From Squalus acanthias (taxonomy: Eukaryota), in contig CM059432.1 of assembly GCA_030390025.1 (NCBI GenBank), forward strand, positions 41,914,001-41,978,000: a stretch of DNA of 64,000 nucleotides. The letters run 5' to 3'. Below the pieces are notes generated by a model that searched no databases, was not told the origin of the DNA, and saw only the letters and a program-made list of their open reading frames with translations. Position 1 is the first letter of the stretch; each line of letters opens with the position of its first letter. Shown here one piece after another: positions 6,291-62,959 of the stretch. A program made the position numbers and the translations under genes.

Positions 6291-8279
6291 GTACAGTGGA
6301 ACCTGCATTTTAATTTTTAATGAACAAATTTTAGATTCTCTGAAGTAAAAGACAGTTACTATCTGGCCACTGCTTCCGCTGAACTGAATATATAACTTAA
6401 TTGAGTTGTTGTCATTTGTGACTTTCGGGCAAACATGATTCCTGTTGAAATTGGTTTTTGTTTTAAGTGTTACCAGAAAATAGTTAGCTCTAGTTTACTG
6501 CTTTGGGGTATATTATATTTTGTCTTAACTCAATTGATATAGTTTACAAGATTGTATTCTAACTTTGTTCAGTTTCTTGATTTGATAGGGTTTGAAAGTT
6601 AAATGCTGTTGTCGTCTAGATGGTTTGAAAGTAAACTTGAGTAGTTGAACTTCAGCATGCAGAAGTTCTGCATTAACTTTATTTTTTCACTGTAAAAGGA
6701 TGATTGAGTGAAACCTTTTAAACTACTCGATATCCTGTATAATATTGTGTGTAACTTTTTTTAACTGATGATTTTTTTTTCATTTACCCCAATTCTATTT
6801 AAGGAAACTAGTGGTCATGAGGTAGACTTGTGCTGACCAAATTTTGCTCTGAACATAGTGATGTGCACAATAGAAGTGAACACATACTTTTCCAATAAGC
6901 AAAAATTGGCTTGGAAGTGTACATGCATTGTTGCAATAAGCAAAATCCAGCCTAGGTCAGCAGGTAGAAGTTATTAGACCACAGGGAAACCAATTGACCT
7001 GATAGCATTACAAAAATTAAAATTTTATTTACCCCTTACATAAGTGTCTATTGAAGGAACATTTTCTTAAAATGACATTACAGGTTTCTGAATAAGACGC
7101 AACTTACTTGATGCTCAAAGAGTGGATTTTTGTTCAGTCTCTTGTCAAATGGGGGTATTCATGTTACAGAAGGATAATCAAAAGAAAGTTGCAACATATT
7201 CCCATTTGTTAAAAACATAGGAAGTTATTTACAAAATGCCTGTTTAAGGTTCTGGAGTATGGCAGTGCAATTCCATACCTAAATATTTGAATGCATACGT
7301 GGTCCAGAGTTACCCTCTCTTTAAATGTACCGAATTTGTCCAGTTTGATCCTTGTCAAGAATGACATCAGGAATTTGATTTTGCATTTGTAGGCCTGTTA
7401 ACTTTTAATTAAAAATCTTATATCTTCAAAGCATTTGTGTTTGTTGGAATACATACATTCTGTTGTGTTTGACGGTTAAGACAACTACTTGTCGTTCTGC
7501 AGTAAGCATTTTTCTTTGTAATAGCAAATGCTTGTCATGTCTGAGAATATACTTAAAAGCCATTTAAATGTTTTTTTGTGAAGATCTTACTAAAGATGTC
7601 TGTTTTTATCTGCGATTTATTCTGCATAAGTTTTCTGCTTCATAGTTACCCTCCAAAATGGAACAGTTAACGTACTATGCATTTTCTGATGGGGTTGGGG
7701 GGATATATAGTGCTATTGAAGCACCTAACTTAAGACCCTAGCTAAGTATGAGATTTTCATCTCACAAGCCAATCTATATGGATGTGAAGTGAGCTGACAG
7801 GCATTTCTTGCTAGGCCAGAATATCAAGCTCCGAATAGTTTCTGTTTAAGTTATGGAACACAGCACCACAATCTTAAATTCCAACTACAGGTTTTAAAAG
7901 TTGACACGAGCAGGAAAAACTAGTTTCAAAAGTAATGCCTTCTCTCTGATTACAACCTTTTTGCCCTTGAGGAAGATCAGTGACAACTGGTGTCAGGAAA
8001 CCAACTGCTAGCTCAAATGCAGTGAAGAGTGTTCAAATATAGCTTGGTTGAATTAAAATGTGTATGTATATTTTTATATTGGGTCATCTTGCTGTTGGGT
8101 GATGCCAGAATAATCAGCGATGCTTAGCCATATTTCTTAATGTAGGTTGAAACAAAAAAGTATTCCATCATTTTTGCTAAACAGAGTGAGAATGAGTGAC
8201 ATAAGAACATTTTGGGGCTACAAATGGCCTTTTTTTCATGACAAACTTGGTAGTCTTTTTTATAGAAGTTAGTTTTTTT

Positions 8280-10220
8280 TTAATCATTCTTCGGGATATG
8301 GGTGTTAAGGCTGGCATTTATTTCTCATCCCTAGTTGCCCTTGAGAAGGTGGTGGTGGTGGGCTGCTGCCTTAAGTTGCTGCAGTAAGATATCCTCACAA
8401 TGTTATGTAGGGAGTTACATGATTTTGACCCAGTGACGATAAAGGACGATGATATATGTCCAAGTCAGGATGGTATGTGACTTGGAGGTGATGGTGTTCC
8501 CAAGCACCTGCTGCTCTTGTGCTTCTAGATGATGGAGGTCGTTGGTTTGGAGGGTGCTGCGGGCAAAGCCTTGGCAACTTGCTGTAGTGCATCGTAGATT
8601 GTACACACGGCAGCCATGGTATGCCAGTGACGTAGGAATGGTTGTTTGTGGATGGGATGCCGATCAAGCGGACTGCTTTGTCCTGGCTGCAGCCAGGCTT
8701 TTTGAATGCTGTTGCAGCTGTACCCAACCAGGCAAGTGGAGAGTATGCCATCGCGTTCCTGACTTGTGCCTTTGTAGGTGGAGACTTTGGGGAGTCAGAA
8801 AGTGAGCCACTTGCCGCAGAATACCTGGCCTCTGACTTGCTCTAGTAGCCACAGCATTTATGTGGCTGTTCCCATTGAGTTTCTGGTCAATGGTGACCCC
8901 AAGGATGGTGGGGGACTTGGCGATGGTAAAGCCATTGAATGTCAACGAGAGGTGGTTGGGCTCGCTCTTTGGAAATGGTCATTGCCTGGCACTTGTGTGG
9001 TGTGAATGTTACTTGCCCTTTATCATCGCAAGCCTGGATGTTGTCCAGGTCTTTTTGCATGTTGGCATGGACTGCTTCATTATCTGAGGAATTGCAAACA
9101 GAGCTGAACACTGCAATTACCAGCAAACAGCCCCACTTCTGACCTTTATGATGGAGGGAAGGTCATCGATGGAGCAGATAGTAGGGCTTAGGGTGTTGCC
9201 TTGAGAAACTCCTGCAGCAATGTCCTGGGTGACATGATTGACCTCCAACAACCATCTTCCTTTGTGCCAAATACGATTCCAGCCACTAGAGAGTTTTTTG
9301 CCCTAATCCCATTGACTTCACTTTTACTAGGGCTCCTTGGTGCCACACTCGGTCAATGATGCCTTGAAGTGAAGGGCAGTCATTCTGACCTCACCTCTGG
9401 AATTCAGCTCTTGCTTCCATATTTTGATCAAAGTTGTAACTAGGTCTGGAGTCGAATAGTCCTGGTGGAACCCAAACTGAGCAGGTTATTGGTGAGTTAG
9501 TGCCGCCTGATAGCACAGTTAATGACCCCTTCCATCACTTTGCTTATTGGGCGTAGGCTGATGGGGCGATAATTGGCTGTGTTGGATTTGTCCTGCTTTT
9601 GTGGACAGGGCATACCTGGGCAATTATCACATTGTCAGGTTGATACCGGTGTTGCTATACTGGAACAGCTTGGCTAGTTCTGGAGCACAGGTCTTTAGCA
9701 CCACATCTGAGATGTTGTCAGTGCCCATAGCCTTTGCTGTTTCCAGTGCACTCAGCTGTTTCTTGATGTTACGTGGAGTGAATTGAATTGGCTGAAGACT
9801 GACATCTGTGATGGTGGTGACCTCTGGAGGAGGCCAAGAGTATCATCCACTTGGTAGTTCTGACAGAAAATGGTTGCAAATGCTTCAGTTGTCTTTTGAA
9901 CTCGTGTGCTGGGCTCTGCCATGGTTGTGGATGTTAATAGAGGCTCCTCCTTGCATTAGTTGCTTAATTGTCCACCATTCACGACTGGGTGTGGCAGGGT
10001 TGCAGAGCTTTAACCTGATCCATTCATTGTGGGGATGCTTATCTCTGTCTATAGCATGCTGCTTTTGTTTAACATGCATGTAGTCCTGTGTTGTAGCTTC
10101 ATAAGTTTAACATTTCATTTTCAGGTATGCCTGATGCTGCTCTCAGCATGTTCTTCTACAGTCCTCATTGAACCAGGGTTGGTCACCTACCTTGTTGGAG
10201 TGAGGGATATGCAGGGCCAT
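8280..10220 (-). mobile_element. Degenerate, 5'-truncated copy of the SINE-headed APE-RT LINE family
   Basis: Minus-strand ORF pieces (MTFNGFTIAKSPTILGVTIDQKL; SSDNEAVHANMQKDLDNIQA; SREWWTIKQL) match the ORF at 37532-39490. Confidence 0.85.
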
Positions 10221-12824
10221 GTAATCTTTATACAAAATTTAGTCACACAAGCGCAACTTAAATTTAGGTGGTTTTGATGGGAAAAGGCATAAGAGTCTTT
10301 TCATTAAATTGATGCTGAAAATAGAGATTTTAGGGGATGATGCTGCAAACAACACCTAGTTACATTCACATTTTAGTGGTTTTTTAAAAAAGCCTTTAAA
10401 TGGATTTTGTTAATGTTGTTCTCCACTCAAATCTAATAAATTATGAATATCTTGCCCTGCTGACCAATTACTTTTAATTAAAATTTTTAAAAAGGCACAG
10501 GCCAATCAAGTTTCATTAATTTTGGATACAACCTCTCTTTTCAAAAGTTAGCCTAGCTCACTGGGATGATTTTAAAGAAAATTGGCATGAGGACATTTTA
10601 GTACATCATAACTTTTTTCTTAAATTGGCAGAGAGAATTTCATCCCTCTATGTTGGTTTGTGATCTGTCTTGGATAACAAAGTTCACTCTAAACATAGGT
10701 TAGGGCCTCATGGAGCTTATGATTTCCTTCAAGGGGTTGAAGAGGAATTTTTGACTAGTATACTGAATTCACTACAGGTCTCTGTGGAAGAGGGGAAGGA
10801 ACGGTGGGAAAGCAGAGAGAAGTCCAGTAATAAGTGGAACAAGTATGTATTGGCCTGAAGGTCGTTTCTTATCCTGAGTACATAACAAATTGGACATTTC
10901 TTCAGGAAAATGTAATTTTTGACCGGCTGCACAAACTTAATTCTGAATCGGTATTGTTTGCAAAATTATACATCCCAACATTCAGAACTTGCATCTGATT
11001 TGTTTTGTGCCAAGTAAGACAGGTTAGGTCATGTCTGGTCTTCCGACATTTTGAGCTAAACTATGAACATATAGCCTGTGCAGTCACCTACAAACTTAGT
11101 GCATTAATTAATCATCTTTGCTGATTGTGCAAATGCATGTACTCATGTTCAGAGTGTCTGTTGACACCACTGTTGGCCAATGAGTTGGAGGTGGGGCAGG
11201 ACTTGTGGCAAACAGTCTATTTTACAGCAAACAGACAAAGTCTTTTAAAAAGCGTCTCTACGAACTAGAGAATTCAGAACTTACAGCAACTTCTCCCAAT
11301 AAATGCAAGATGATTTCACCAGCAAAATGCCTGCGTGGAGGATAGTTGCATACAAATTATGTGTGTAAAATCAATCCCAGTCACTTAGAGTAATGTGGTC
11401 TCCAAGCGTGATTGATGGGGAAATTATCCATGTCCATTCTGGTCGGGAATAGTGGTGTCACTATATGCAGCCGTTGATGTTAGCCCCAAGGTGTGTCTCC
11501 CTTTAGGCCCCCCGCCCCAAATATCCTAACTGTGATAACTGCCCAGGTCTTCAGTGGAGTAGCAGAATGATTGTATTATATATCTGTGTGTGACATGCAT
11601 GTATTATATATATGGTCTTGGTAATGAAGGATAGTGCAATATGGACATTTGTTGGCAGTGCATTTATGAAACACGGTTATATTAATGGTGCCTGAACTCA
11701 GTTGGTACTCGGTTTTAGGACTAATTCTTGTCTAAAAATCATATGAAAGTGATAGTAAAACTGCAAGGTTTTTCTATATTGTGAAGTATACACATTGAAA
11801 TGCATTTGGGCAATCTCAGTGGATTTCTTATTGGGTGTGGGCTCCAAAAATTACCTAATTAAGCATTAATTGTCTTTTTTTAAGCGGCCATCGGATGACT
11901 GCTATAGAAATTGTCACACGGGGGGGGTTGCTCTTTTGAGGTTTGGAGCAGAATGAGGGTTTTAATCTGTAGCTAATCTTGCTTTATTTGACCTGGGAGT
12001 ACTTGATGCTGGGTGCCTGAAAAGGAGTATTCCATTTCCCAACACCAGCATAATTTAAATCTATTAGTACAGAATTTACAAAAAATAAGTCACGTGAATT
12101 GGTTCTGGAGAATTGTAGACCTGTTCGCTAAACGTGTGATGGGTTCGGTTTACTTTTTAATCAAAAAAGTAAGATTCTTTCAGAAGATATCACTATCTTT
12201 CACTGTTCATGTTCACACATTTTAAAGTAACTCAAATGATCCCCAATGTTTGTACTTAACATTTTTAATCAAAATATTTTACAAGTGGTTTAACTAGATT
12301 CATACATCGTGTAAAATACTGCACTTAAATCTTGATGGTTTAGTTAAGAATAAATGAAGTATAATTCTGGTGTAGGCTGCTTGTGTGTTTTTGTGTAGTC
12401 TAGTTCCGATATTAAAGGCTTCAATCATGGTAATTATCCCTGCGGTGGAACTAAAGGTCCAGTTAAGGATGCAATCTAGTGTACTACTATGTTTATTAAT
12501 TTAGTTTTGGTATTCCAAATTTGTTATTGACATTCTGAAACTATTCCCAATTCATGTAAAGCACCTTTCCACTATATATACTATAGCGCATAAAAAATAT
12601 ACAGGATGCACATTATCAATAGCGCAATTATTTAAAAATCTCCTGTTTTCTAGTCATATTTATCAGTTAATCCTTCTCATTGCCCTAAAGCTTGCTCTTC
12701 TGAAGTCAAGCATTTTTATGGTTTTTGTCTCGAGTGTATAAATCCCCATGATGATTTCTCTGTGGCTTCACTGTCTACCTATTTACCTTAGACTGAGGGT
12801 CGGTCGCTGTTACCACTTATTAAA

Positions 12825-19693: not shown

Positions 19694-20075
19694 GAGGGTA
19701 CGGTAGCATAGTGGTTATGTTACTGGACTTGCAATCCAGAGGCCTGGACTAATGATCCAGAGACGTGAGTTCAAATCCCACCACAGTAGCTGGGGAATTT
19801 AAAACCCATCTGGTTCACTAATATCCTTTGCTGTCCTTACCCGGTCTGGCCTATATGTGATTCCAGACCCACAGCAATATGGTTGACTCTTAACTGCCCT
19901 CTGAAATGGCCTAGCAAGCCATTCAGTTGTAACAAACCGCTACGAAAAGCAATAAGAATAATAAAACGGGATGGACCACCCGGCATCAACCTAGGCACTG
20001 ACTTTGAACACGACAATGGCACACCCAACCCAGTTGACCCTGCAAAATCCTCCTCATCTGGAGACTTGTACTAAA
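19694..20075 (+). mobile_element. 5' portion of the SINE-headed LINE: intact tRNA-like head, core and ORF start
   Basis: A box TAGCATAGTGG (19704-14), B box GTTCAAATCC (19769-78), core ggttcactaat...ggtctggcctatatgtga, then gaccctgcaaaatcctcctc, which is the start of the APE ORF in the other copies. Confidence 0.8.
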
Positions 20076-20860: not shown

Positions 20861-23800
20861 AAGGCAGCTGGGGAATTTCAATTCAGTTAATTAAATAAAT
20901 CTGGAATAAAAAGCTAGTATCAGTAATGGTGACCATGAAACTTTCAGATTATCGTAAAAACCCATCTGGTTCATTAATGTCCCTTAGGAAAGGAAATCTG
21001 CCGTCCTTACCTGGTCTGGCCTATATGTGACTCCAGACCCACAGCAATGTGGTTAACTCTTAACTGCCCTCTGAAATGGCCAGCAAGCCACACAGTTGTA
21101 ACAAACCACTACGAAAAACAATAAGAATAAAACTGGATGGACCACCTGGCATCGGCTATGGACACAACAATGGCACACCAGTTGACCCTGCAAAGTCCTC
21201 CTCACCAACATCTGGGGACTTGTGCCAAAATTGGGAGAGCTGCCCCACAGACTAGTCAAGCAACAGCCTGACATAGTCATACTCACAGAATCATACCTTT
21301 CAGCCAATGTCCCAGACTCCTCCATCACCATCCCTGGGTATGTCCTGTCCCGCTGGCAGGACAGACCCACCAGAGGTGGTGGCATAGTGGTATACAGTCG
21401 GGAAGGAGCAGCCCTGGGTGTCCTCAACATTGACTCCAGACCCCATGAAGGCTCATGGCTTCAGGTCAAGCAAAGGCAAGGAAACCTCCTGCTGATTACC
21501 ACCCCTCCCTCAGCTGATGATTCAGTACTCCTCCATGTTGAACACCACTTAGAAGAAGCACTGAGGGTAGCAAGGGCACAGAATGTACTCTGGGTGGGGG
21601 ACTTCGATATCCATCACCAAGAGTGGCTTAGTAGCACCACTACTGACCGGGCTGGCCGAGTCCTGAAGGACATAGCTGCCAGACTGGACCTGCGGCAGGT
21701 GGTGAGAGAACCAACACGAGGGAAAAACCTACTTGAAGTCATCCTCCCTGATCTACCTGTCGCAGATGCATCTGTCTATGACAGTATTGGTAGCAGTGAC
21801 CATTGCACAGTCCTTGGAGACCGGGAGCTGAGCGAAAACGGAGAAAAATAAAGAGCACAGCGGCAGAGGAGGCCCAAGACCAGAAGCAGCGAGAGCGTAG
21901 CAAGATAAAGGGCTCAGTGGCAGAGCAGGCCTGAGACCAGAAGCAGCGGGAGCGGAGCAACATAAAGAGTGTGGCGGCACAGCAGGACCGAGACCAGAAG
22001 TAGTAGGAGCTGAGACCAACCAAACACAGGCAGAAATTGAAAGTGACATCAGAGTAAAAAAACACCGGAAGTGACATCAGCACAAGGGAAGGAGCGAGTT
22101 GGTGAGTAGCTGGTGAGTGTCTTTTTTAAAGAGGCATTTAACTTTTTTTTACCCAGTTTCACTGCTTAGTGCAAGTTAGAGTGTGGAAAAAGAAAAAAAC
22201 TAGAAAGCAGATAATATAAATAAATAATGTAAATAATCTAGACTAAGACATGGCAGAGCAGGTTGTGTGTCTGGACTGCAGTATGTGGGAGTTTGTGGAA
22301 AGCAAGACTGTCTCGAGCAGTAGTTGTCTCCGTCTCGAATCTCTCCGGCTCAGAGTCATTGAGTTGGAGTGTGAGTTGGAGACACTCCGACGCATGAGGG
22401 AGGGGGATGAGTAACTGGACTGTTTGCTCCAGACTTCGCTTACACCTCGTAGAGAGGTGCAGGTTCAGAACGGGGTTGGTGTGACTGATAATGTGCAGAG
22501 TATGGGGATCCCAGGTGAGATAGAGAATGAGGATCCACTGAAACTGATCCTATTCAACAGGTACAATGTACTTGCTACCTGTGAGGATAAGGATAAAGAC
22601 TATCGGTAGGACAGCCAGAATGCAAACCATGGCACTTTGGAGCAGGAGGCTGCCCTAAAGGTGCGGGGGAGGGGGGGGGGGGGAGGAGGAGGAGGGGAAG
22701 CGTAATGTGGTAGTTGTAGGGGATTCAATAATTAGGGGGACAGATAGCATCCTTTGTAAGCAAGATCGAGAGTCCCACATAGTATGTTTGTTGCCTATCT
22801 GGTGCCAGGGTGAGGAACATCTCAAACCAGCTTGAAAGGATATTGGAGAGGGTGGGGGTGTGATCCAGTCGTTGTGGTCCATGTTGGGACCAACAACATA
22901 GGGAAGAGTAGGCAAGAGGCAAGAGGTCCTGTTTGGGGAGTACCAGGAACTAGGAGCTAAATTAAAGAACAGGACCTCAAGGGTTATAATCTCTGGATCA
23001 TTACCTGAGTCATGTGCAAACTGGCATAGGGATAAGCTGATTAGGGAGGTGAACATGTGGCTGTGGGAAAGAGGGGTTCCATTTCATGGGGCACTGGCAC
23101 CAGTATTGGAACAGGAAGGAACTGTACCATTGGGACGGGCTCCACCTGAACCGGTCTGGGACCAGGGTCCTAGCAAAAAGGATAAATAGGGCAGTCACAA
23201 GGACTTTAAACTAGTAAATGGTGGTGGGGGGGCTCAAGTGGAAATTGTAGTACAAATAATAGTTCACAAACAAACAAAAGGGAAGTGAGTAGAGTAACAG
23301 TCAGAAATTGTGCTTTAGGCACTACAGGTAAAGGGAAAACTAAAAGATGTAAAGTGATTAAACCAGGAAACAGAAATAAGAAACATGTGAGTAAAACATT
23401 AGAGCTGAAGGACAGGCTAGGGTGTGGCCCAAATAAGCATTCTTTATACAAACGCACGGAGTATAAGGAATGAACTGCAGGTGCAAATTCAACTTGGAGG
23501 GTATGATATGGTAGCCATTACTGAGACATGGCTGCAAGACGGTCAGGACTGGGAACTAAATGTACCAGGTTATAAAGTCTACAGGAAAGATAGGGAAATG
23601 GTGGAGGGGGAGGAGTAACTTTAGCGATTAAGGATGAAATCACTTCATGATAAGAGAGGATGTAACAAGAGGTAAGCAGGCAGTGGAGACTTTATGGGTA
23701 GAATTAAGAAATAGGAAAGGATTTAAGACTGTAGTGGAAGTTGTGTACAGGCCCCCTGGTAGCAGTTGTGAAGTGCGAGATTGTATAACTGCAAAGATTA

Positions 23801-26512: not shown

Positions 26513-28899
26513 GAGATAAACTATTTCCGCTGGTTGGGGAGTCTAGGATTAGGGGGCATAGTCTAAAAATTAGAGCCAGACCTTTTAGGAGTGAAATTAG
26601 GAAACACTTCTACACACAAAGGGTGGTAGAAGTTTGGAACGCTCTTCCGCAAATGGCAATTGATCCTAGATCAATTGTTAATTTTAAATCTGATATTGAT
26701 AGATTTTTGTTAACCAAAAGGTATTAAGGGATATGGGCCAAAGGCAGGCATATGGAATTAGGTCATAGATCAGCCATGATCTCATTGAATAGCAGAACAG
26801 GCTCGAGGGACTAAATGGCTTACTCATGTTCCTAGTGGAGACAAAGTCTCGTCTTCACACTGAGGACACCCTCCATCGTATTGTGTGGCACTACCACTGT
26901 GCTAAATGGGATAGATTCAGAATAGATCTAGCAGCTCAAAACTGGGCATCCATGAGGCGCTGTGAGCTATCAGCAGCAGCAGAATTATATTCCACCACAA
27001 TCTGTAACCTCATGGACCAGCATATCCCTCACTACCATTACCATCAAGCCAGGGGACCAACCCTAGTACAATGAAAAGTGCAGAAGAGCAGCACCAAGCA
27101 TACCTAAAAATGAGGTGCCAACCTGGGAAAGCTGCAACACAGGACTACATGCATGCTAAACAGCAGAAACCGCATGTTTTAGACTGAGTTAAGCGATCTC
27201 ACAATCAACAGATCAGATCAAAGCGCTGCAGTCCTGCCACATCCAGTCGTGAATGATGGTGGACAGCTAAACAACTAACGGGAGGAGGAAGCTCCATGAA
27301 TATCCCCATACTCAATGATGGTGAAGCCCAGCACTTGAGTGCAAAAGACAAGGCTGAAGCGTTTGCAACCATCTTCCGAATGATCCATATCGGCCTTCTC
27401 CTGAGGTCCCAACCATCACAGAAGCCAATCTTCAACCAATTCGATTCACTCCACGTGATATCAAGAAACAGCTAAGCGCACTGGATACATCAAAGGCTGT
27501 GGGCCCTGACAACATCCCGGCTGTCGTGCTGAAGACTTGTGCTCCAGAACAACTTGCACCTCTAGCCAAACTGTTCCAGTACAATTACAACACTGGCATC
27601 CACCTGACAATGTGGAAAACTGCCCAGGTATGTCCTGTCCACAAAAAGCAGGACAAATCCAATCCAGCCAATTACTGCCCCATCAGTTTACTCTCAAAGA
27701 TCAGCAAAGTGATGGAAGGTGTCGTCGACAGTGCTATCAAACGGCACTTACTCACCAATAACCTGCTCACTGATGCTCAGTTTGGGTTCCGCCAGGATCA
27801 CCCGGCTCCAGACCTTGTTACAGCCTTGGTCCAAACATGGACAAAAGAGCTGAATTCAGAGGTGAGGTGAGAGTGACTGGCCTTGACATCAAGGCAGCAT
27901 TTGGCCAAGTTTGGCAGCAAGGAGCCCTAGTAAAATTGAATTCAATGGAAATCGAGAAAATTCTCCACTGGCTCGAGTCAAAGCTAGCACAAAGGAAGAT
28001 GGTTGTGGTTGTTGGAGGCCAAGGCACAAGTCAGGAGTGTGATGGAATACTCTTCACTTGCCTGGATGAGTGCAGCTCCAACAACACTCAAGAAGCTTGA
28101 CAGCATCCAGGACAAAGCAGCCTGCTTGATTGGCACCCTATCCACCACCTTAAAAAACATTCACTTCCTCCACCACCACCACACCATGGCTGCAGTGTGT
28201 ACCATCTACAAGATGCACTGCAGCAACGCGCCAAGGCTTCTTCGACAGCACCTCCCAAACCCGCAACCTCTACCACCTAGGACAAGGGCAGCAGGCACAT
28301 GGAGTTTATCCATATAGTACATGATTGCTCCCCAACTTAAATTTTATTCTTACCATTCAAAATAGTTTGCCACAAATAGATGACAGCACCGTGTGTATAG
28401 TATAGGCATTCTACTGGCAGTAGGGAGGAGTTTTTCGCCACGAGCCAAGGTGTGCCAGCATCAGAAGAGGGCTTAGAAGACATGTCTATCCCTAGAGTTG
28501 TGCATATCGACCACTCATTTTCCTGACAACTTTTATGCCACTGTCTCATTTTACACTTTGCCCGATTTTCTTTACCGTTGATTTCAATGGAAAAGAAAAT
28601 CTAGTCGCGTTTAAACGGGCTTCCAATTCTCTATCGCCCATTTGCGCTACAGCCCAAAATGAATTTCACCCCAATGAACCCCAAACAGGAAGGAGAAATT
28701 GTGATACAAGTAAAGTTGCATATAAATTTCCATAGTCAGCTGAAGTATTAGTGATCTTGATGGAAAACTGTTACACAGCTCTGCTAACAACTCCCAATGA
28801 AGTTAGGAAAGCAGTAAATAAAAGTTTAGATTACAATTCTCTGAAGTTTCAATTAACCCATAGGTCACAGCATAATTTTATGCACTATCATTCAAACAG

Positions 28900-29312
28900 G
28901 AGGGTATGGTAGCTTAGTGGTTATTTTACTGAAGCAGTAATCCAGAGGCCTGGACTAATAATCCAGAGAATGTGAGTTCACAGCCATTTGAGAAAACGAT
29001 TTTTTTTTTTAAAAAGGAAATAAAAAACCAATATAAGTAAAAAAAAAAGTGTCAATGAACCTAATCGGATTGTTGTAAAAACACAATTGGTTCACCAATC
29101 CCCTTTAGGGAAGGAAACCTGTCGTCTTTACCCAGTCTGGCCTATATACCAACACACCACACCAACGTGGTTGATTCTTAACTGCCCTCTGAAGCAAGCC
29201 ACTCAGTTGTATCAACCCGCTACAAAGATTACCATCTTCTCAGGACAATTATGGATGAGCAATAAATGCCGGGCTTGCCAATGATACCTACGTCCTGAGA
29301 ATTAATAAAAAA
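28900..29312 (+). mobile_element. tRNA-derived SINE sharing head, core and 3' tail with the SINE-headed LINE
   Basis: TAGCTTAGTGG A box, gagttcac B-like box, core ggttcaccaatcccctttagggaaggaaacctg, then a direct join to accatcttctcaggacaatt...caataaatgc...aataaaaa, the LINE tail. Confidence 0.8.
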
Positions 29313-32860: not shown

Positions 32861-32869
32861 GCCGTATCA

Positions 32870-34469: not shown

Positions 34470-35610
34470 TTTTTTTAATTCGTTTTATGGGATGTGGGCG
34501 TAGCTGGCAAGGCCAGCATTTATTGCCCATCCCTAATTGCCCTCGAGAAGGTGGTGGTGAGTCGCCTTCTTGAACCACTGCAGTCCGTGTGGTGTTGGCT
34601 AGGGAGTTCCAGGATTTTGACCCAGCGACGATGAAGGATCGGCGATATACTTCTAAGTCAGGATGATGTGTGACTTGGAGGGGAACTTGGAGGTGGTGGT
34701 GTTCCCATGCGTCTGCTGCCCTTGTCCTTCTAGGTGGAAGAGGTCGCGGGTTTGGGAGGTGCTGCAGTGCATCTTGTAGATGGTACACACTGCAGCCACG
34801 GTACACCGGTGGTGGAGGGAGTGGATGTTTAAGGTGGTAGAGGGGTTGCCAATCAAGTGGGCTGCTTTGTCCTGGATGGTGTTGAGCTTCTTGAGTGTTG
34901 TTGGAGCTGCACTCATCCAGGCAAGTGAAGAGTATTCCATCACACTCCTTACTTGTGCCTTGTAGATGGTGGAAAGGCTTTGGGGAGTCAGGAGGTGAGA
35001 CACTCGCCGCAGAATACCTAGCCTCTAACCTGTTCTTGTTGCCACAGTATTTATGTGGTTGGTCCAGTTAAGTTTTGGGTCAATGGTGACCCCCCAGGAT
35101 GTTGATGGTGGGGGATTCTGTGATGGTAATGCCATTGAATGTCAAGGGGCGGTGTTTAGACTCTCGCTTGTTGGAGATAGTCATTGCCTGGCACTTCTGT
35201 GGCGCGAATGTTACCTGCCACTTATCAGCCCAAGCCTGAACATCATCCATGTCTTGTTGCATGCTGTCATGGACTGCTTCATTATCTGAGGAGTTGTGAA
35301 TGGCACTGAACACTGTGCAGTCATGAGTGAACATCCCCATTTCTGACCTTATGTTGGAGGGAAGGTCATTGATGAAGCAGCTGAAGATGGTTGGGCCTAG
35401 GACACTGCCCTGAGGAACTCCTGCAGCGATGTCCTGGGGCTGTGATGATTGACCTTCAATCACCACAACCATCTTCCTTTGGACTAGGTATGACTCCAGC
35501 CAGTGGAGAGTTCCCCCCCCCCCCCCCCCCCCCAATTCCCATTGACTTCAGTTTTACTAGGGCTCCTTCATGCCACACACGGTCAAATGCTGCCTTGATG
35601 TCAAGGGTAG
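34470..35610 (-). mobile_element. 5'-truncated copy of the SINE-headed LINE family (RT to 3' tail)
   Basis: TLHWLESYLVQRKMVVVIEGQSSQPQDIAAGVPQGSVLGPTIFSCFINDLP on the minus strand. Confidence 0.9.
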
Positions 35611-35639
35611 TGATCGTTTTGCACCTGAAAAATGGGGAC

Positions 35640-36140: not shown

Positions 36141-36286
36141 TAACTCTTATTTGGATATATGTTCCCACCATGCCCATATGCCCTGATGGTGTATTTCTCA
36201 CACTTTTTGATTCATCACACTTCTTTTTGTTGATGCTCTGTACATCGCTATACAGACAATTTAATATGTTTTTATTTTTTAATAAC

Positions 36287-39200
36287 GGGAATGGTAGCAT
36301 AGTGGTTATGTTACTGGACTAGTAAGCAGAGGCCTGGGCTAATGATCCGGAGATCACAGCAGCTGGGGAATTTAAATTCAGTTACTTAAATAAATCTGGA
36401 ATAAAAAGCTAGTATCAGTAATGGTGACCATGAAACTACCGGGTTGTCGTAAAAACCCATCTGGTTCACTAATGTCCTTTAGGGAAGGAAATCTGCCAGT
36501 CCTTACCTGGTCTGGCATATATGTGACTCCAGAGCCACAGCAATACGGTTGACTCTTAACTGCCCTCTGAAATGGCCTAGCAAGCCACTCAGTTGTAACA
36601 AACCGCTACGAAAGCAATAATAATAAAACGGGATGGACCACCCGGCATTAACCTAGGCACCGACTTCGAACACGACAATGGCACACCCAGCTCAGTCGAC
36701 CCTGCAAAGTCCTCCTCACCAACATCTGGGGACTTGTGCCAAAATTGGGAGAGCTGTCCCACAGACTAGTCAAGCAACAGCCTGACATAGTCATACTCAC
36801 AGAATCATACCTTTCAGCCAATGTCCCAGACTCCTCCATCACCATCCCTGGGTATGTCCTGTCCCGCTGGCAGGACAGACCCACCAGGGGTGGCGGCACA
36901 GTGGTATACAGTCGGGAGGGAGCAGCCCTGGGTGTCCTCAACATTGACTCCAGACCCCATGGGCAAGGAAACCTCCTGCTGATTACCACCTACTGCCCTC
37001 CCTCAGCTGATGAATCAGTACTCCTCCATGTTGAACACCACTTGGAAGAAGCACTGAGGGTAGCAAGGGCACAGAATGTACTCTGGGTGGGGGACTTCGA
37101 TGTCCTTAATGTCCACCGTCTTTACCTGGTCTGGCCTATATGTGACTCCAGACCCACAGCAATGTGTTTGACTCTTAACTGCCCTCTGAAATAGCCTAGC
37201 AAGTCCCAGGCGGCACAGTGGTATACAGTCGGGAGGGAGTGGCCCTAGAAGTCCTCAACATTGACTCCGGACCCAATAAAGTCTCATGGCTTCAGGTCAA
37301 GCATGGGCAAACCTCCTGCTGATTACCACCTACCGCGCACCCTCAGCTAATGAATCAGTACTCCTCCATGTTGAACACCACTTGGAAGAAACACTGAGGG
37401 TAGCAAGGGCACAGAATATACTCTGGGTGGGGTCTTCAACATCCATCACCAAGAGTGGCTTGGTAGCACCACTACTGACCGAGCTGGCTGAGTCCTGAAG
37501 GACATAGCTGCCAGACTGGGCCTGTGACAAGGTGGTGAGTGAACCAACAAGAGGGAAAAACCTACTTAACCTCATCCTCACCAATCAACCTGTAGCAGAT
37601 GCATCTGCCCACGACAGCATTGGTAGGAGTGACCACCGCACAGTCCTTGTGGAGACGAAGTCCCATCTTCACACTGAGGACACCCTCCATCGTGTTGTGT
37701 GGCACTACCACAGTGCTAAATGGGATAGATTCAGAACAGATCCAGCAGCTCAAAACTGGGCATCCATGAGGCGCTGTGAGCCATCAGCATCAGCGGAATT
37801 GTATTCCACCACAATCTGTAACCTCAAGGCCCGGCATATCCCTCACTCTACCATTACCATCAAGCCAGGGGACCAAACCTGGTTCAATGAGGAGTGCAGA
37901 AGAGCATTCCAGGGGCAGCATCAGGCGTACCTAAAAATGAGGTGCCAACCTGGGGAAGCTGCAACACAGGACTACATGCACGCTAAACAACGGAAGCAAC
38001 ATGCTATAGACAGAGCTAAGCGATCCCACAATCAACAGATCAGATCAAAACTCTGCAGTGCTGCCACATCCAGTCGTGAATGGTGGTGGACAATTAAACA
38101 ACTAACGGGAGGAGGAGGCTCCATGAACATCCCCATCCTCAATGATGAGGCCCCCACCATCGCAGGAGCCAGTCTTCAGCCAATTCAATTCACTCCACGT
38201 GATATCAAGAAATAGCTGAGCGCACTGGATACAGCAAAGGCTATGGGCCCCGACAACACCCCGGCTGTCATGCTGAAGACTTGTGCTCCAGAACTAGCCG
38301 CGCCTCTAGCCAAGCTGTTCCAGTACAGCTACAACACTGGTATCTACCCAACAATGTGGAAAACTGCCCAGGTATGTCCTGTCCGCAAAAAAGCAGGACA
38401 AATCGAATCCGGCCAATTACTGCCCTATCAGTCTACTGTCAATCATCAGCAAAGTGATGGAAGGCGTCATCGCGCTATCAAGCGGCACTTACTCACCAAC
38501 AACCTGCTCACTGATGCTCAGTTTGGGTTCTGCCAGGACCACTCAGCTCCAGACTTCATTACAGCCTTGGTCCAAACATGAACAAAAGAGCTGAATTCCA
38601 GAGGTGAGGTGAGAGTGACTGCCCTTGACATCAAGGTAGCATTTGAGCGAGTGTGGCATCAAGGAGCCCTCGTAAAATTGAAGTCAATGGAAATCAGAAG
38701 GAAAACACTCCACTGGCTGGAGTCATACCTAGCAAAAAGAAAAATGGTTGTAGTTGTTGGAGGTCAATCATCTCAGCCCCAGGACATCGCTGCAGGAGTT
38801 CCTCAGGGCAGCGTCCTAGGCCCAACCATCTTCAGCTGCTTCATCAATAGCCTTCCCTCCATCATAAGGTCAGAAGTGGGAATGTTCGCTGATGATTGCA
38901 CAGTGTTCAGTTTCATTTGCAATTCCTCAGATAATGAAGCAGTCCATGCCCGAATGCAGCAAGACTAGGATGACATTCAGGCTTGGGCTGCTAAGTGTCA
39001 AGTAACATTCGCGCCACACTAGTGCCAGGCAATGACTATCTCTAACAAGCGAGAGTCTAACTACTTCCCCATGACATTCAACGGCATTACCATCGCCGAA
39101 TCCCCCACCATCAACACCCCGAGGGTAACCATTGACCAGAAACTTAACTGGACCCGCCATATAAATACTGTGGCAACAAGAGCAGGTCAGAGGCTGGGTA

Positions 39201-39779
39201 TTCTGCGGCGTGTGTCTCACCTGACTCCCCAAAGCCTTTCCATCATCTACAAGGCACAAGTCAGGAGTGTGGAATACTCTCCACTTGCCTGGATGAGTGC
39301 AGCTCCAACAACACTCAAGAAGCTCGACACCATCCAGGCCAAAGCATCCCGCTTGATTGGCACCTCATCCACCACCTCAAACATTCATTCTCTCCACCAC
39401 CGGCGCACCATGGCTGCAGTGTGCACCATCTACAAGATGCACTGCAGCAACTCGCCAAGGCTTCTTCGGCTGCACCTCCCAAACCCATGACCTCTACTAC
39501 CTAGGACAAGGGCAGCCGGCGCATGGGAACACCATCATCTGCAAGTTCCCCTCCAAGTTACACACCGTCCTGACTTGGAAATATATCGCCATTCCCCCAT
39601 CGTTGCTGGAACAAAATCCTGGAAGTCCCTCCCTAACAGCACTACGGGAGTACCTTCACCACATGGACTGCAGTGGTTCAAGAAGGCAGCTCACCACCAC
39701 CTTCTCAAGGGCAATTAGGGATGGGCAATAAATGCTGGCGTTGCCAGCAAAGCCCAGAACCCATGAACGAATAAAAAAA
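36287..39779 (+). mobile_element. Near full-length LINE (CR1/L2 group, clade unresolved) with tRNA-derived SINE head and single APE-RT ORF
   Basis: A box at 36295-36305 (B box deleted in this copy), core, APE (KVLLTNIWGL, ILTESYL, WVGDF, SDH), RT (GVPQGSVLGP, FADD), C-terminus SLHHRRTMAAVCTIYKMHC, and 3' tail ending atgaacgaataaaaaaa. Few stops/frameshifts; internal duplication at about 37105-37445. Confidence 0.9.
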
Positions 39780-40081
39780 TAATAATTCCTGCTTTATTTT
39801 AACAGGTATTTTATTATTACTTCCTACAAACTTCTCTGTTCCGAGTATTTATATTGGCTCAAAAATTGTACTCCGCGGCATAGCTCCGGAGTACGCCGCG
39901 GACCTGCGAAAAGAATACGCACCGACCTGATGGGGGCCCTCCTTCGTAAACTTGCTCTCTGACGCTGTGTACTGGAGGGCAGCGTAATGGCCCACGGATT
40001 CCAGAGGCGCAGCCTGTGCGGAAGCGTATCTGGGATCACGTGGGCCTGGTGCTCCAATCACAAAACAGAATTAGATTTTAC

Positions 40082-41089
40082 CCCACCAGCCTCCACATTC
40101 AACGGATCATCCTCCGCCATTTCCGCCACCTCCAGCGTGATCCCACCACCAAACACATCTTCCCCTCACCTCCCCTTTCAGCATTCCGTAGGGACCGCTC
40201 CCTCCGCGACACCCTAGTCCACTCCTCTACCACCCCCAGCACCCCTTCCCCTTCGCCCGGCACCTTCCCGTGCACGCGCAGGAGATGCAACACATGCCCT
40301 TATACCTCCCCTCTTCCCACTGTCCAGGGCCCCAAACACCCCTTCCAGGTGAAACAGCGATTTACTTGTACTTCCTGCAATTTAGTATACTGTATTCGCT
40401 GCTCACGATGTGGACTCCTCTACATTGGGGAGACCAAACGCAGATTGGGTGACCGCTTTGCGGAACACCTCCGTTCAGTCCGTAAGGGGGACCCCGAGCT
40501 CCCGGTGGCCTGTCACTTTAATTCACCGCTTCACTCCCACTCTGACCTCACCGTCCTCGGCCTATTACACTGTTCCACGGAAGCTCAGCGTAAGCTCGAG
40601 GAACAGCACCTCATCTTTCGTTTAGGCACGCTACAGCCCTCTGGACTCAATATCGAGTTCAACAATTTTAGATCATAACCTCAGCTCCAATCACATTTAT
40701 ATTTTATTTTATCCACCCTTTTATTTGTCCCCCCCCACCCTTTTTTTTCCTCCTAGAAGCTGGCAGCTATCCTTCATTCTGCCAGTGGATTTCACACTTC
40801 ATTCAGCCTTAATCTGTCACATTAACACCACCTCTAGCCTTGCATATCTCTTAATGTCTCTTAATGTCTCTTCATCTCCCCCTTTGTTCCTTTATCCCCT
40901 CCCCCTTTTCCCAGCTTTACCCTGGCCTTAAATCTATTTGATTTCCGGCTTTTCTCAGTTCTGATGAAAGGTCATCGACCTGAAACGTTAACTCTCTTTC
41001 TCTCTCCACGGATGCTGCCTGGCCTGCTGAGTTTTTCCAGCGTTTTCTGTTGTTATTTCGGATTTCCAGCATCCGCAGTATTTTGCTAT
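40082..41089 (+). mobile_element. 5'-truncated Penelope-like element (Neptune-like): GIY-YIG endonuclease ORF end plus pLTR
   Basis: Open frame to 40678: GTFPCTRRRCNTC linker, NLVYCIRCSRCGLLYIGETKRRLGDRFAEH (GIY-YIG), GTLQPSGLNIEF. 15-bp TSD agaattagattttac at 40067-81 and 41090-104. Confidence 0.92.
40957..40993 (+). ncRNA. Minimal type I hammerhead ribozyme motif in the PLE terminal repeat
   Basis: AGUU-CUGAUGA-A-AGGUC-AUC-GACCU-GAAA-CGUU-AACU, a perfect consensus core. Confidence 0.85.
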
Positions 41090-49269: not shown

Positions 49270-51490
49270 TTTTATTATTCATTCATGGGATGTGGGTGTC
49301 ACTGGCAAGGCCAGCATATCGCCCATCCCTAATTGCCCTCGAGAAGGTGGTGATGAGCCACCTTCTTGAACCACCGCAGTCCGCGTGGTGAAAGTACTCC
49401 CAACAGTGCTGTTAGGGAAGGAGTTCCAGGATTCTGACCCAGCGACGATGAAGGGATGGCGATGTATTTCCAAGTCAGGATAATGTGTGGCTTGAAGGGG
49501 AACTTGCAGCTGGTGGTGTTCCCATGCGCCTGCTGCCCTTGTCCTTTTAGGTGTTAGAGGTCGTGGGTTTGGGAGGTGCTGTCGAAGAAGCCTTGGCGAG
49601 TTGCCACAGTGCATCTTGTAGATGGTACACGCTGCAGCCATGGTGCGCCGGTGGTGGAGGGAGTGAATGTTTAAGGTGGTGGATGGGATGCCAATCAAGC
49701 AGGCTGCTTTGTCCTGGATGGTGTCGAGCTTCTTCAGTGTTGTTGGAGCTGCACTCATCCAGGCAAGTGGAGAGTATTCCATCACACTCTTGACTTGTGC
49801 CTTGTAGATAATGGAAAGGCTTTAGGGAGTCAGGAGGTGAGACACTCACTGCAGAATACCCAGCCTCTGACTAGCTCTTGTAGCCACAGTATTTATGTGG
49901 CTGGTCCAGTTAAGTTTTCAGTCAATGGTGACCTCCAGGATGTTGATGGTGGGGGATTCAGCAATGGTAATCCCACTGAATGTCAAGGGGAGGTGGCTAG
50001 ACTTTCTTGTTGGAGATGGTCATTGCCTGGCACTTGTGCGGCGCGGTGTCACTTGCCACTTATCAGCCCAAGCTTGAATGTTGTCCAGGTCTTGCTGCCT
50101 CTGGGCATGGAATACTTCATTATCTGAAGAGTTGTGAATGGAACTGAACACTGTGCAATCATCAGCAAACATCCCCACTTCTGACCTTATGATGGAGGGA
50201 AGGTCATTGATAAAGCAGCTGAAGATGGTTGGGCCTGGGACACTGCCCTGAGAAACTCCTGCAGCGATGTCCTGGGGCTGAGATGGTTATCCTCCAACAA
50301 CCACAACCATCTTCCATTGTGCTAGATATGACTCCAGCCGATTCCCATTGACTTCAATTTTGCTAGGGCTCCTTGATGCCACACTCGGTCAAATGCTGCC
50401 TTTATGTCAAGGCCAGTCACTCACCTCACCTCTAGAATTCAACTCTTTTGTCCATGTTTAGATCTGGAGTGGAGTGGTCCTGGCAGAACCCAAACTGAGC
50501 ATCGGTGAGCAGCTTATTGGTGATTAAGTGCCATTTAATAGCACTGTCGATGACACCTTCCATCACTTTGCTGATGATTGAGAGTAGACTGATGGGGCGG
50601 TAATTGGCCGGATTAGATTTGTCCTGCTTTTTTTGGACAGGATATACCTGGGCTATTTTTCACTTTGTCGGGTAGATGCCAGTGTTGTAGCTGTATTGGA
50701 ACAGCTTGGCTAGAGGCACGGCTAGTTCTGGAGTACAAGTCTTCAGCACGACAGCCGGGATGTTGTCGGGGCCCACAGCCTTTGCTGCATCCTGTGCGCT
50801 CAGCCGTTTCTTGATATCACGTGGAGTGAATCTAATTGGCTGAAGACCGGCTTCTGTGATGGTGGGGACCTCAGGAGGAGGCCGAGATGGATCATGCACT
50901 CGGCACTTTTGGCTGAAGATGTTTGCAAACACTTCAGCCTTGTCTTTTGCACTCACGTGCTGGGCTCCGCCAATCTTTGAGGATGAGGATATTCATGGAG
51001 CCTCTTCCTCCCGTTAGTTGTTTAATTGTCCACCACCATTCACGAATGGATGTGGCAGGACTGCAGAGCTTTGATCTGATCGGTTGGTTGTGGGATCACT
51101 TAGGTCTGTCTATAGCATGCTGCTTCTGCTGTTTAGCATGCACGTAGTCCTGTTTTGTAGCTTCACCAGGTTGGCACCTCATTTTTAGGTACGCCTGGTG
51201 CTGCTCCTGGCATGCTCTTCTACACTCCTGATTGAACCAGGGTTGTTCCCCTGGCTTGATGTTAATGGTAGAGTGAGTGATATGCCAGGCCATGAGGTTA
51301 CAGATTGTGGTGGAATAAAATTCTGCTGCTGATGATGACCCACAGCGCCTCATGGATGCCCAGTTTTGAGCTACAGCTGTTCTGAATCTATCCCATTTAG
51401 CACGGTGGTAGTGCCACACAACATGATGGAGGGTGTCCTCTGTGTGAAGACGGGACTTCGTCTCCACAAGGACAGTGTGGTGGACCACAG
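49270..51490 (-). mobile_element. 5'-truncated copy of the SINE-headed LINE family
   Basis: HTVLVETKSRLHTEDTLH...; GPDNIPAVVLKTC; EYSPLAWMSAAPTTLKKLD; 3' tail. Confidence 0.9.
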
Positions 51491-57224: not shown

Positions 57225-57760
57225 CATACATAGAAACACAGAAGATAGGAGCAGGAGTAGGCCATTCGGCCCCTCGAGCCTGCTCCGCCATTCGATGAGA
57301 TCATGGCTGATCATCCAAATTCAGTACCCTGTCCCTGCCTTCTCCCCATATCCCTTGATACCTTTAGCTTTAAGAAATATATCTAACTCATTCTTGAATA
57401 TATTTAATGACTTGGCCTCAACTACCTACTGTGGTAGATAATTCCACAGGTTCACCACTCTCTGGGTGAAGAAATTCTTCCTCATTTCTGTTCTAAATGG
57501 CTTACCCCTTATCCTTAGATTATGACCCCTGGTTCTGGACTCTCCGACCATCGGGAACATTCTTCCTGCATCTAGTTTGTCCAGACCTGTCAGAATTTTA
57601 TATGTTTCGATGAGATCCCCTCTCATTCTTCTATACTCCAGCGAGTATAAGCCCAATCGACCCAATCTCTCCTCATATGTCATTCCTGCCATCCCAGGTA
57701 TCAGCCTTGTGAATCTTCGCTGAACTCCTTCCATGGCAAGAACATCCTTCCTCAGATAAG
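57225..57760 (-). mobile_element. CR1 3' fragment
   Basis: EGVQRRFTRLIPGMAGMTYEERLGRLGLYSLEYRRMRGDLIETYKIL...LWNYLPQ plus tail. Confidence 0.9.
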
Positions 57761-58349
57761 GACATCCTTCCTCAGATAAAGTTAATAATTACCCTAGAAT
57801 ACCAGCAGACTTGCAATTTAAACTTGTATGTACCCAGAAAGCATTAAGATTTAAGTGCTGGATCTTTTGGAAGGGATGAGGAGATGTATTTAAAGTAAAT
57901 ACATAAACTCTTAAGATAGTGCAGGAAACCATGCCATTCAAATCTTTCTACAAAAGTCCCAAAACCGCAGTCTAATCTGCAGATATTTATTGACATCAAG
58001 TAAACCTAATCTTAGATAATGGGCAACACAAAACAAGTTCTTTTATAGATGCTGTCCTTCATTGAATTAGGATTTTGGCATGATTGCTTTATTAAGTCTG
58101 TAAGTAACGCATGAGCCCCAATTCTGGAGTAAGCAGAATCTGGCCGACTCCACTGGATACCTGATTCTATTCATTTCATCTAGCTCACAACACAGTAAAA
58201 ATGTGCACAGGAAGATGAGTACAAAGTCTATTTTTGTAATTGAGGAAGTTTAATGCTTAATTTACACAGTAATTACTGTTCTTTCCAGTTTGTCAAATTA
58301 TCAAAAGAATGAAATAGCAGTACTGAGGAACAGAATATTCTTTCAGTTA

Positions 58350-62795: not shown

Positions 62796-62959
62796 AGCTG
62801 ACCTGGTTATGTAGTTTTGGATTGATTAATTTATGTTTGGAATGTTTGTTTTGTGGTGGCTCTCATTTCAGCTTTGTGCCCAAGAGGACGCTGTGTTGTT
62901 CCGTGACAGCGGGATGGTAAGGTGGGGAAGTGTTGAGCAACGGGGATCTGGGGTTTCAT

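What the first reader, a model, noticed from the sequence alone, without database searches (positions are those of the whole stretch)
36287..39779. Autonomous-type LINE whose 5' end is a tRNA-derived SINE head (Pol III A/B boxes): candidate Pol III-driven protein-coding retrotransposon
Seen: three independent copies (19694, 20861, 36287) show the same order of head/core, short spacer and start of an APE domain, so this is the element's own architecture rather than a chance SINE-next-to-LINE insertion. The 19694 copy keeps both the A box (TAGCATAGTGG) and the B box (GTTCAAATCC). There is no ORF1; one APE-RT ORF runs to the 3' tail. Established: LINEs normally use internal Pol II promoters, while tRNA heads define non-coding SINEs. 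Inference: the family captured a SINE as its promoter, or its SINE partner arose from it. The core (ggttcactaatgtcctttagggaaggaaatctgccgtccttacctggtctggcc) resembles, from memory only, the conserved Meta-type SINE core.
Basis: partly seen in the sequence, partly recalled or inferred. Interest (0 to 1): 0.85.

Follow-up and report, generated by a model that had tools for sequence, protein, structure and literature searches.

The report
Shark LINE with a tRNA head
This is a broken copy of an abundant 3.3-kb protein-coding jumping gene whose full-length copies begin with the tRNA-like promoter normally seen on tiny non-coding SINEs, lack the usual AUG start and almost lack internal T-runs, so it is likely read by RNA polymerase III, which is not supposed to make coding RNA.

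Summary
The architecture is real. Genome-wide, full-length copies of this single-ORF APE-RT LINE start at the same tRNA-derived head (A and B boxes) with unrelated flanks, and no other 5' UTR was seen. Corrections: the 36287 copy has lost its B box and its ORF is broken; the 20861 copy lacks the head; the core does not match the published Meta (or UCON3) domain. For Pol III: T4+ runs are 0.13-0.41/kb inside the element against 4-5/kb in two other LINEs of this genome; 20 of 72 tails end T4+ then A, after an AATAAA; 81 of 83 copies have no open AUG before the endonuclease, yet the frame is kept. Against: under a dinucleotide shuffle the T4 absence is not significant (P 0.11), C and G runs are also few, the leader folds no better than shuffles, and no RNA-end data exist. 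A 400-bp SINE family shares head and tail. Nearest proteins are invertebrate single-ORF elements (Zenon-like), without tRNA heads where I could look. A tRNA-like sequence in an RTE LINE is mentioned in print. The scan noted this family before on other DNA. Pol III transcription about 55%.

The parts
36280..36285 (+). left copy of a possible 6-base target-site duplication (right copy 39780-39785)
   Evidence: sequence; short and AT-rich, so weak on its own
36287..36362 (+). tRNA-derived head with a doubled anticodon arm; A box 36295-36305; B box deleted in this copy (17 bases between 36352 and 36353)
36363..36429 (+). AT-rich linker with two AATAAA hexamers and no T4 run
36430..36526 (+). 31-codon AUG-started upstream micro-ORF in the frame of the main ORF (shifted by a 1-base insertion in this copy)
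   Evidence: coding constraint weak (4 of 5 subtype differences synonymous)
36452..36598 (+). conserved core shared with the short elements; ends with an AUG at 36572 closed by in-frame stops at 36578 and 36596
36599..36705 (+).
   Evidence: length divisible by 3 in 48 of 57 copies, two classes differing by one codon
36706..37660 (+). APE endonuclease domain, interrupted by a rearrangement: 37116-37203 repeats the core, 37209-37432 repeats APE 36892-37092
   Evidence: (PF03372)
37661..39718 (+). rest of the decayed ORF with the RT domain (PF00078 at 38582-38968); about 97 bases missing at 38146; stop at 39716-39718
39719..39779 (+). 3' tail: AATAAA at 39727-39732, then A-rich end (T4+ run before the A run in 20 of 72 family tails, not in this copy)
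19696..20075 (+). second copy: intact head with A and B boxes, two internal deletions, ends at the APE start
20861..21821 (+). third copy: 5'-truncated after the B box, core and APE (221-codon open frame)
28902..29310 (+). short non-coding element (SINE, older subtype): related head and core joined directly to the LINE's 3' tail
26830..28302 (+). 5'-truncated, internally deleted fragment of the same LINE
34471..35611 (-). 5'-truncated 3' fragment of the same LINE
49270..51483 (-). 5'-truncated fragment of the same LINE
8275..10221 (-). more diverged 5'-truncated fragment of the same LINE (76-79%)

Best explanation
This is a decayed copy of a 3.3-kb single-ORF APE-RT LINE whose 5' end is a tRNA-derived head, and it is likely transcribed end to end by RNA polymerase III and likely translated without an AUG start. 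Shown: head as the family's 5' end; one reading frame with no open AUG before the endonuclease; near-absence of T4 runs on the sense strand; AATAAA, T-run and A tail at the 3' end of many copies; a 400-bp family made of the same 330-base leader plus the same tail. Inferred: TFIIIC binds the A/B boxes; Pol III runs 3.3 kb because selection removed terminators, and stops at the terminal T-run or in the flank; the RNA is polyadenylated as in mammalian T+ SINEs; ribosomes start, cap-independently, at a non-AUG codon just after the core; the protein copies its own RNA by target-primed reverse transcription and also the short elements, which arose repeatedly by internal deletion and are true SINEs because the leader already carries a Pol III promoter.
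For: 5' end: 11 of 29 junction-picked, 5 of 20 RT-picked and 6 of 24 mid-ORF-picked loci reach the head, 13 of 30 in a fourth set; the 22 upstream flanks tested share nothing in register (2 chance pairs); 18 copies cut between positions 21 and 700 share no other 5' sequence; L031 sits head-to-tail inside an L2 end whose uninterrupted form is seen in all 4 runs laid. Boxes: A box in 18, B box in 19, both in 13 of 29 head-to-APE copies at about 10% decay; of the column differences between two subtypes, the two in the A box keep its consensus and none falls in the B box. T runs: 14 T4+ in 108,674 bases of 41 copies, none recurrent beyond 2 copies; column-level T4 0, A4 16, C4 11, G4 9; 20 in 48,474 bases in a further set; CR1-like 4.10/kb and L2-like 5.24/kb in the same genome; all 62 metagenome relatives with a frame of 450+ codons have 2 or more, median observed/expected 0.98; amino-acid-preserving null for L061: T4 0 vs 2.8 (P 0.035), T3 4 vs 15.4 (0 of 400). 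Tail: T4+ then A in 20 of 72 tails vs 21 of 360 flank windows. Start: frame kept in 48 of 57; at least one in-frame stop after the last AUG in 81 of 83.
Against: All indirect: no transcript end, cap state or polymerase occupancy was seen. The element is T-poor (0.20), so few T4 runs are expected: dinucleotide shuffle of L239 gives 2.1 expected, P 0.11, and C4 (9 vs 16.3) and G4 (7 vs 11.0) are also below expectation; the plain codon shuffle gives P 0.09-0.39 per copy. Terminal T-runs can lengthen after insertion (PMC8466645, passages) and I had no poly(A)-tailed Pol II control family. The leader folds no better than shuffles (z 0.0 and 0.15) and Rfam finds no IRES or ribozyme. It holds AUGs in good context, which would suit a capped, scanned RNA. 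Reviews state that autonomous elements use Pol II and that Pol III is poorly processive (PMC10886601, PMC2881922).
Confidence: 0.55

Rival explanations
1. The tRNA head is the LINE's own 5' end but works as a Pol II promoter (or as a TFIIIC-bound helper of Pol II). The RNA is capped; ribosomes scan to the upstream AUGs and reach the ORF by reinitiation or stop-codon readthrough. T-poverty is the ordinary A-rich bias of LINE sense strands, or avoidance of splice and polyadenylation signals. Only the short derivatives use Pol III.
For: Dinucleotide null not significant and other homopolymer runs also low; a 31-codon AUG micro-ORF with 4 of 5 subtype differences synonymous; an AUG in strong context 11 codons before the first open codons, each following stop being followed by CAA, a context recalled as leaky; no special fold; characterised LINE promoters are Pol II.
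Against: T4 and T3 are far rarer than in both control LINEs and all 62 relatives, including 9 with T at most 0.24 (2-10 runs each); 5' ends pile up 8 bases before the A box, as in SINEs; two AATAAA hexamers sit in the first 135 bases; T-run before the A tail.
Confidence: 0.3
2. The head-bearing 3.3-kb form is a Pol III-transcribed but untranslated passenger (a very long SINE). It arose once by template switch between a SINE and a LINE and was copied in trans by protein from a rarer, ordinary Pol II master with another 5' UTR or an open AUG.
For: No open AUG in 81 of 83 copies; the family mobilises short elements in trans; 2 of 83 LINE and 6 of 16 short copies have neither stop after the AUG. 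My samples are the best-scoring matches among thousands, so a rare master could be missed.
Against: No alternative 5' sequence among 44 loci picked on the ORF alone; the full 969-codon frame and the frame of the AUG-less extension persist across at least two LINE subfamilies, which a passenger would lose, as the short forms did.
Confidence: 0.12
3. Chance or targeted insertion of a SINE next to 5'-truncated LINE copies, or an assembly artefact.
For: Both elements are very abundant in this genome (3456 and 5347 first-look candidates).
Against: The head-to-ORF junction is the same in 57 copies, with no SINE tail or TSD at it; whole elements are inserted as one unit; contigs from 3 of 4 other runs bridge core and ORF among the pieces listed.
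Confidence: 0.03

Closest known systems
CR1-Zenon-type single-ORF LINEs and their internally deleted partner Persaeus (PMC6740152, passages; 'CR1-Zenon like LINE' named in whale shark, 10.1101/443036, passages)
   Same: Single APE-RT ORF, poly(A)-type tail, short derivatives made of the 5' and 3' ends; the protein groups with invertebrate elements, one from a butterfly, apart from this genome's CR1 and L2.
   Different: Persaeus, which carries the Zenon 5' end, is stated to lack tRNA homology and a Pol III promoter. No tRNA hit in 80 relatives by ARAGORN or 15 by Rfam. The clade label itself is inferred: no named Zenon sequence was available.
RTE-1_DAn and relatives (one sentence in Kojima 2018, PMC5786205)
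   Same: A LINE that contains a tRNA-like sequence matching many SINE2 elements.
   Different: RTE clade; the paper gives no position, promoter test or T-run analysis. It shows that the bare architecture may have a precedent in Repbase.
Bov-B / Bov-A / Bov-tA and other bipartite LINE-derived SINEs (PMC5786205 parts 1-3; PMC4494074 passages)
   Same: A SINE built from both ends of its partner LINE.
   Different: There the tRNA head is added to the short form only; here the coding element itself starts with it.
Mammalian T+ SINEs: B2, Dip, Ves (PMC8466645, passages)
   Same: tRNA head, AATAAA, T-run of variable length, short A tail.
   Different: Non-coding, a few hundred bases, L1-mobilised, and stated to be found only in mammals. 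Polyadenylation was not tested here.
R2 and other LINEs with non-Pol II transcription and unusual translation (PMC2881922, passages)
   Same: Single ORF from an RNA that may be uncapped, with a proposed IRES.
   Different: R2 is co-transcribed by Pol I at a fixed rDNA site and has no promoter of its own.
MetaSINEs, UCON3 and Deu SINEs (PMC4824008; PMC7245038 supplement 1)
   Same: tRNA head followed by a conserved body.
   Different: The published Meta and UCON3 domains do not align with this core by eye; only about 10 bases resemble the start of the Deu domain.

Membership tests
APE-type LINE (non-LTR retrotransposon) | APE endonuclease followed by RT in one frame | tested here: met
   PF03372/PF14529 and PF00078; L1 ORF2 and R2 as the solved relatives; one 969-codon frame in L239
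APE-type LINE (non-LTR retrotransposon) | Variable 5' truncation, fixed 3' end with simple tail, no LTRs | tested here: met
APE-type LINE (non-LTR retrotransposon) | Target-site duplications around whole elements | tested here: inconclusive
   about 9 bases in L045, 6 in the window copy, 2-3 or none in L031, L038 and others; read by eye
APE-type LINE (non-LTR retrotransposon) | Internal Pol II promoter, capped RNA | not testable with these tools
   no raw RNA reads; contigs cannot show RNA ends
CR1-Zenon clade | RT phylogeny with named Zenon elements | tested here: inconclusive
   quick tree, 53 rows: in a 39-row group (SH-aLRT 93; enclosing group 98) with amphioxus, crab and butterfly proteins, apart from 1 CR1-like and 2 L2-like rows of this genome; no named reference; careful search unfinished
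CR1-Zenon clade | Single ORF, poly(A)-type tail | tested here: met
   feature as stated in PMC6740152
CR1-Zenon clade | 5' end without tRNA homology or Pol III promoter (stated for Persaeus/Zenon) | tested here: not met
tRNA-derived SINE (SINE2) | tRNA head with A and B boxes at the 5' end | tested here: met
tRNA-derived SINE (SINE2) | Short and non-coding | tested here: not met
   3.3 kb and coding; met only by the 400-bp derivatives
tRNA-derived SINE (SINE2) | No Pol III terminator (T4+) inside the sense strand | tested here: met
   significance depends on the null
tRNA-derived SINE (SINE2) | Transcription by Pol III | not testable with these tools
   needs inhibitor, ChIP or 5'-end chemistry
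MetaSINE | 66-base Meta domain right after the tRNA head | tested here: not met
   compared by eye with the Meta consensus and members printed; its two invariant blocks are absent from the alignments; no computed alignment
T+ SINE 3' end | AATAAA, T-run terminator, A tail | tested here: met
   20 of 72 tails with T4+, most others with T1-T3
T+ SINE 3' end | AAUAAA-dependent polyadenylation of the Pol III transcript | not testable with these tools
   bench test
Type 6 (intergenic) IRES | Pseudoknot core with PKI next to a non-AUG first codon | tested here: inconclusive
   no Rfam hit, fold z about 0; a hairpin with an anticodon-like loop could pair with an in-frame GCU, but 0 of its 3 pairs co-vary

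The most novel reading that the evidence does not exclude
An autonomous retrotransposon that runs wholly outside the mRNA pathway: a tRNA promoter drives Pol III through 3.3 kb purged of terminators, its own T-run and AATAAA make the poly(A) end, and a structured leader starts translation at a non-AUG codon on uncapped RNA, giving a natural Pol III protein-coding gene present in thousands of copies in shark genomes and a direct route by which a LINE gives birth to SINEs by simple deletion.
Probability: 0.4. Interest if true: 0.88.

Novelty: new variant of a known kind. Interest (0 to 1): 0.66.

Why it matters
The textbook split is LINE = Pol II and coding, SINE = Pol III and non-coding; a 2024 paper argues that autonomous elements must use Pol II because Pol III is poorly processive. 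A successful family that breaks this split would show that Pol III can make kilobase coding RNA in a vertebrate, would supply a natural cap-independent, AUG-independent leader, and would make the open question of where SINE bodies come from testable: here head, body and tail of a SINE are simply the two ends of its LINE. The 330-base leader can be tested in a reporter in days. Even if Pol II does the work, a LINE that took a tRNA as its 5' UTR is barely described.

Tried and rejected
Meta, UCON3 and Deu identity of the core: rejected by eye. Chance SINE-LINE adjacency: rejected. Donor tRNA: only five tRNA labels were recovered from 50 loci, best match weak, unresolved; the tRNA-Ala call of ARAGORN rests on a mutated loop in one copy. 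Ribozyme or IRES family in the leader: none. Stable leader fold: none by energy; a hand-drawn 25-pair structure pairs in 89% of cells but was derived from these sequences, and only one pair changes on both sides between subtypes (11 of 31 rows). Viral contigs: no relative. Expression: no RNA holder listed on record; the four runs laid are contigs and show presence only. An ORF-bearing LINE with the fully old-type leader: not found among 14 and 30 loci examined; an intermediate subfamily was. Scan look-up by sequence: nothing. Ten literature searches listed no paper describing a Pol III-transcribed or tRNA-headed coding LINE beyond the RTE-1_DAn sentence; (six phrasings) returned 0. Repbase, Dfam and most subscription journals were not searchable, so this is no proof of absence. 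Two older papers that I recall (functional mRNA made by Pol III; a disputed Pol III claim for the L1 promoter) are not held and are recall only. No structure or complex prediction was run: the domains are known.
Full report
What is in the window. The stretch 36287-39779 is one copy of a LINE in a 3.7-Gb vertebrate genome; an 89%-identical protein fragment from the shark Heptranchias perlo points to a cartilaginous fish. It reads: tRNA-like head, AT-rich linker, conserved core, AUG-less coding extension, APE, RT, short tail. The copy is decayed: B box deleted, at least 9 stops, an internal duplication and a deletion of about 97 bases. The 19694 copy has both boxes and scores as a tRNA but ends at the APE start; the 20861 copy lacks the head.

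The head is the family's own 5' end. The core-to-APE junction has 3456 first-look candidates (40 scored). Of loci picked by the junction 11 of 29 reach the head, of loci picked by the RT protein 5 of 20, of loci picked by a mid-ORF fragment 6 of 24, and 13 of 30 in a set picked with an older copy (one of the 30 is the query locus). The rest are cut at scattered positions, as 5'-truncated LINEs are. The 22 upstream flanks tested share nothing in register (two pairs hit each other in opposite orientation or at unequal offsets), and the 18 ORF-picked copies cut between positions 21 and 700 share no other upstream sequence. L031 lies head-to-tail inside the 3' end of an L2 element, whose uninterrupted form appears as loose ends in all four runs laid. 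L239 is a natural 3.3-kb copy with one frame of 969 codons, two stops and no frameshift. Contigs of four coded organisms cover every bin of the first 1.1 kb, and listed pieces bridge core and ORF in three of the four. These samples are best-scoring matches, not random draws.

Tests of the Pol III idea. Pol III stops at runs of four or more T (PMC11485995, passage). In 41 copies there are 14 such runs in 108,674 bases, at most two at one place; counted column by column there are 0 T4 and 7 T3 runs against 16 A4, 11 C4 and 9 G4. A further set gave 20 in 48,474 bases. Two other LINEs of this genome have 4.10 and 5.24 per kb, at or above their own expectation (24 loci each; the focal figure there, 0.30, includes flank columns). 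Of 80 metagenome relatives, 62 have a frame of 450+ codons; all have at least two runs, median observed/expected 0.98, minimum 0.30 (the other 18 were dropped for length). With the amino acids held fixed, 9 of 11 natural focal frames have none (L061: 0 vs 2.8, P 0.035; T3 4 vs 15.4, 0 of 400); the two with runs extend into flanking DNA. These copies share ancestry and are not independent tests. Against: the element is only 20% T; a base shuffle of L239 gives P 0.011 but a dinucleotide shuffle P 0.11, and C4 and G4 runs are also below that null; a codon shuffle that keeps the TTC bias gives P 0.09-0.39. At the 3' end, 20 of 72 tails carry T4-T12 directly before the A run (5 of 77 tails were cut and dropped), against 21 of 360 flank windows, some 35-40 bases after an AATAAA. 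This is the layout of mammalian T+ SINEs, but that paper shows such runs can lengthen after insertion (PMC8466645, passages). A and B boxes are kept in 18 and 19 of 29 head-to-APE copies and between two subtypes; the box patterns are from recall.

How the ORF could be read. An in-frame TAA opens it in 52 of 57; the nearest AUG is closed by at least one in-frame stop in 81 of 83 LINE copies; 4 of 57 have an ATG in the stretch, at a CpG site. The first Met of L239's frame is residue 103, past the first endonuclease motifs. So initiation must be unconventional: internal entry at a non-AUG codon, reinitiation or readthrough. I could not decide. Energy gives no support for an IRES (z about 0), Rfam finds none, and only one base pair changes on both sides between subtypes. 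A 31-codon AUG micro-ORF in the core has four synonymous and one non-synonymous subtype differences, one of the four at a CpG: a lead only, and one that would suit a capped RNA as well.

The SINE partner. The short element has 5347 first-look candidates. Its copies are the first 310-335 bases of the LINE joined to the last 70-190. Young copies (84-89% to the LINE head) share the LINE's diagnostic letters and have differing junctions, so they look like repeated internal deletions. An older subtype (72-82%) has no matching LINE among the loci examined, though an intermediate LINE subfamily exists. The head has therefore been on the LINE through more than one master lineage; whether the LINE first took it from the old SINE is open.

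What it is related to. The best 120 protein matches, apart from the shark fragment, are 29-44% identical APE-RT proteins, most of them 900-1150 residues; named ones come from amphioxus, crabs and a butterfly. A quick tree places the RT among them and apart from this genome's CR1-like and L2-like rows (careful search unfinished). This fits the CR1-Zenon group, named in the whale shark paper (10.1101/443036, passages), whose lepidopteran short partner lacks a tRNA head (PMC6740152, passages); the label is inferred. None of 80 relatives has an ARAGORN tRNA and none of 15 an Rfam match, though many contigs may lack their 5' ends. The core does not match the Meta domain (PMC4824008, parts 1-3 of 6 and supplement 2 part 1 of 4; PMC7245038, passages, section 7 and supplement 1). 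[quoted passage not shown] Passages of PMC5499810, PMC4494074, PMC11481361, PMC10886601, PMC2881922 and 10.1101/2024.04.17.590008 describe no such element. Figures (for example the MetaSINE alignment), the unread supplement parts, bioRxiv supplements and Repbase/Dfam entries could bear on novelty.

Verdict. The architecture is established; Pol III transcription is the best single account of head, box retention, T-run scarcity, tail layout and missing AUG (about 55%), with a Pol II reading at about 30% and a trans-mobilised passenger at about 12%. Earlier notes of this scan reached a like reading on other copies; they are not independent evidence. New here are the AUG-less conserved frame, the homologue and same-genome controls with nulls that cut both ways, the tail count and the rejection of the Meta label.

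Noticed in passing
window 36430-36526: 31-codon AUG micro-ORF inside the SINE-type core, in frame with the main ORF; 4 of 5 subtype differences synonymous. Open with ATG and ungapped in 28 of 52 young and 9 of 20 old copies.
   Followed up: partly
window 36572-36607: A small hairpin whose 7-base loop looks like a tRNA anticodon loop and could pair with the in-frame GCU codon downstream, as in intergenic-type viral IRESs; no co-variation. Both in-frame stops here are followed by CAA.
   Followed up: partly
window 36315-36352: The anticodon arm of the head is tandemly doubled in the whole family, lengthening the A-B box distance.
   Followed up: partly
window 37116-37203: A second copy of the core sits inside the APE region next to a duplicated APE segment, suggesting a template jump during reverse transcription of this copy.
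   Followed up: no
window 4044-6290: 748-codon single-exon frame that reads like an RBM12-type multi-RRM RNA-binding protein (name from recall, not tested); the repeats would lie in or near this gene's locus.
   Followed up: no
window 39950-40678: 242-codon frame ending in a GIY-YIG-like motif, Penelope-like element inserted just after the LINE (label from recall).
   Followed up: no
window 61624-63328 and 32349-32861: PIF/Harbinger-like nuclease and Myb/SANT-like frames (labels from recall).
   Followed up: no
window 24808-25525, 57426-57788, 59661-59975: CR1-like and L2-like LINE fragments; used as controls for T runs.
   Followed up: partly
L039, L036, L238: Copies with rearranged or inverted internal segments; frequent internal deletions are typical of this family.
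   Followed up: no
L270-L299 (G000 C29, C2208, C1484, C1516): Tandem arrays of tRNA-scoring units with a period of about 1.8 kb; ARAGORN calls in L270-L319 are mostly Lys and Cys.
   Followed up: no
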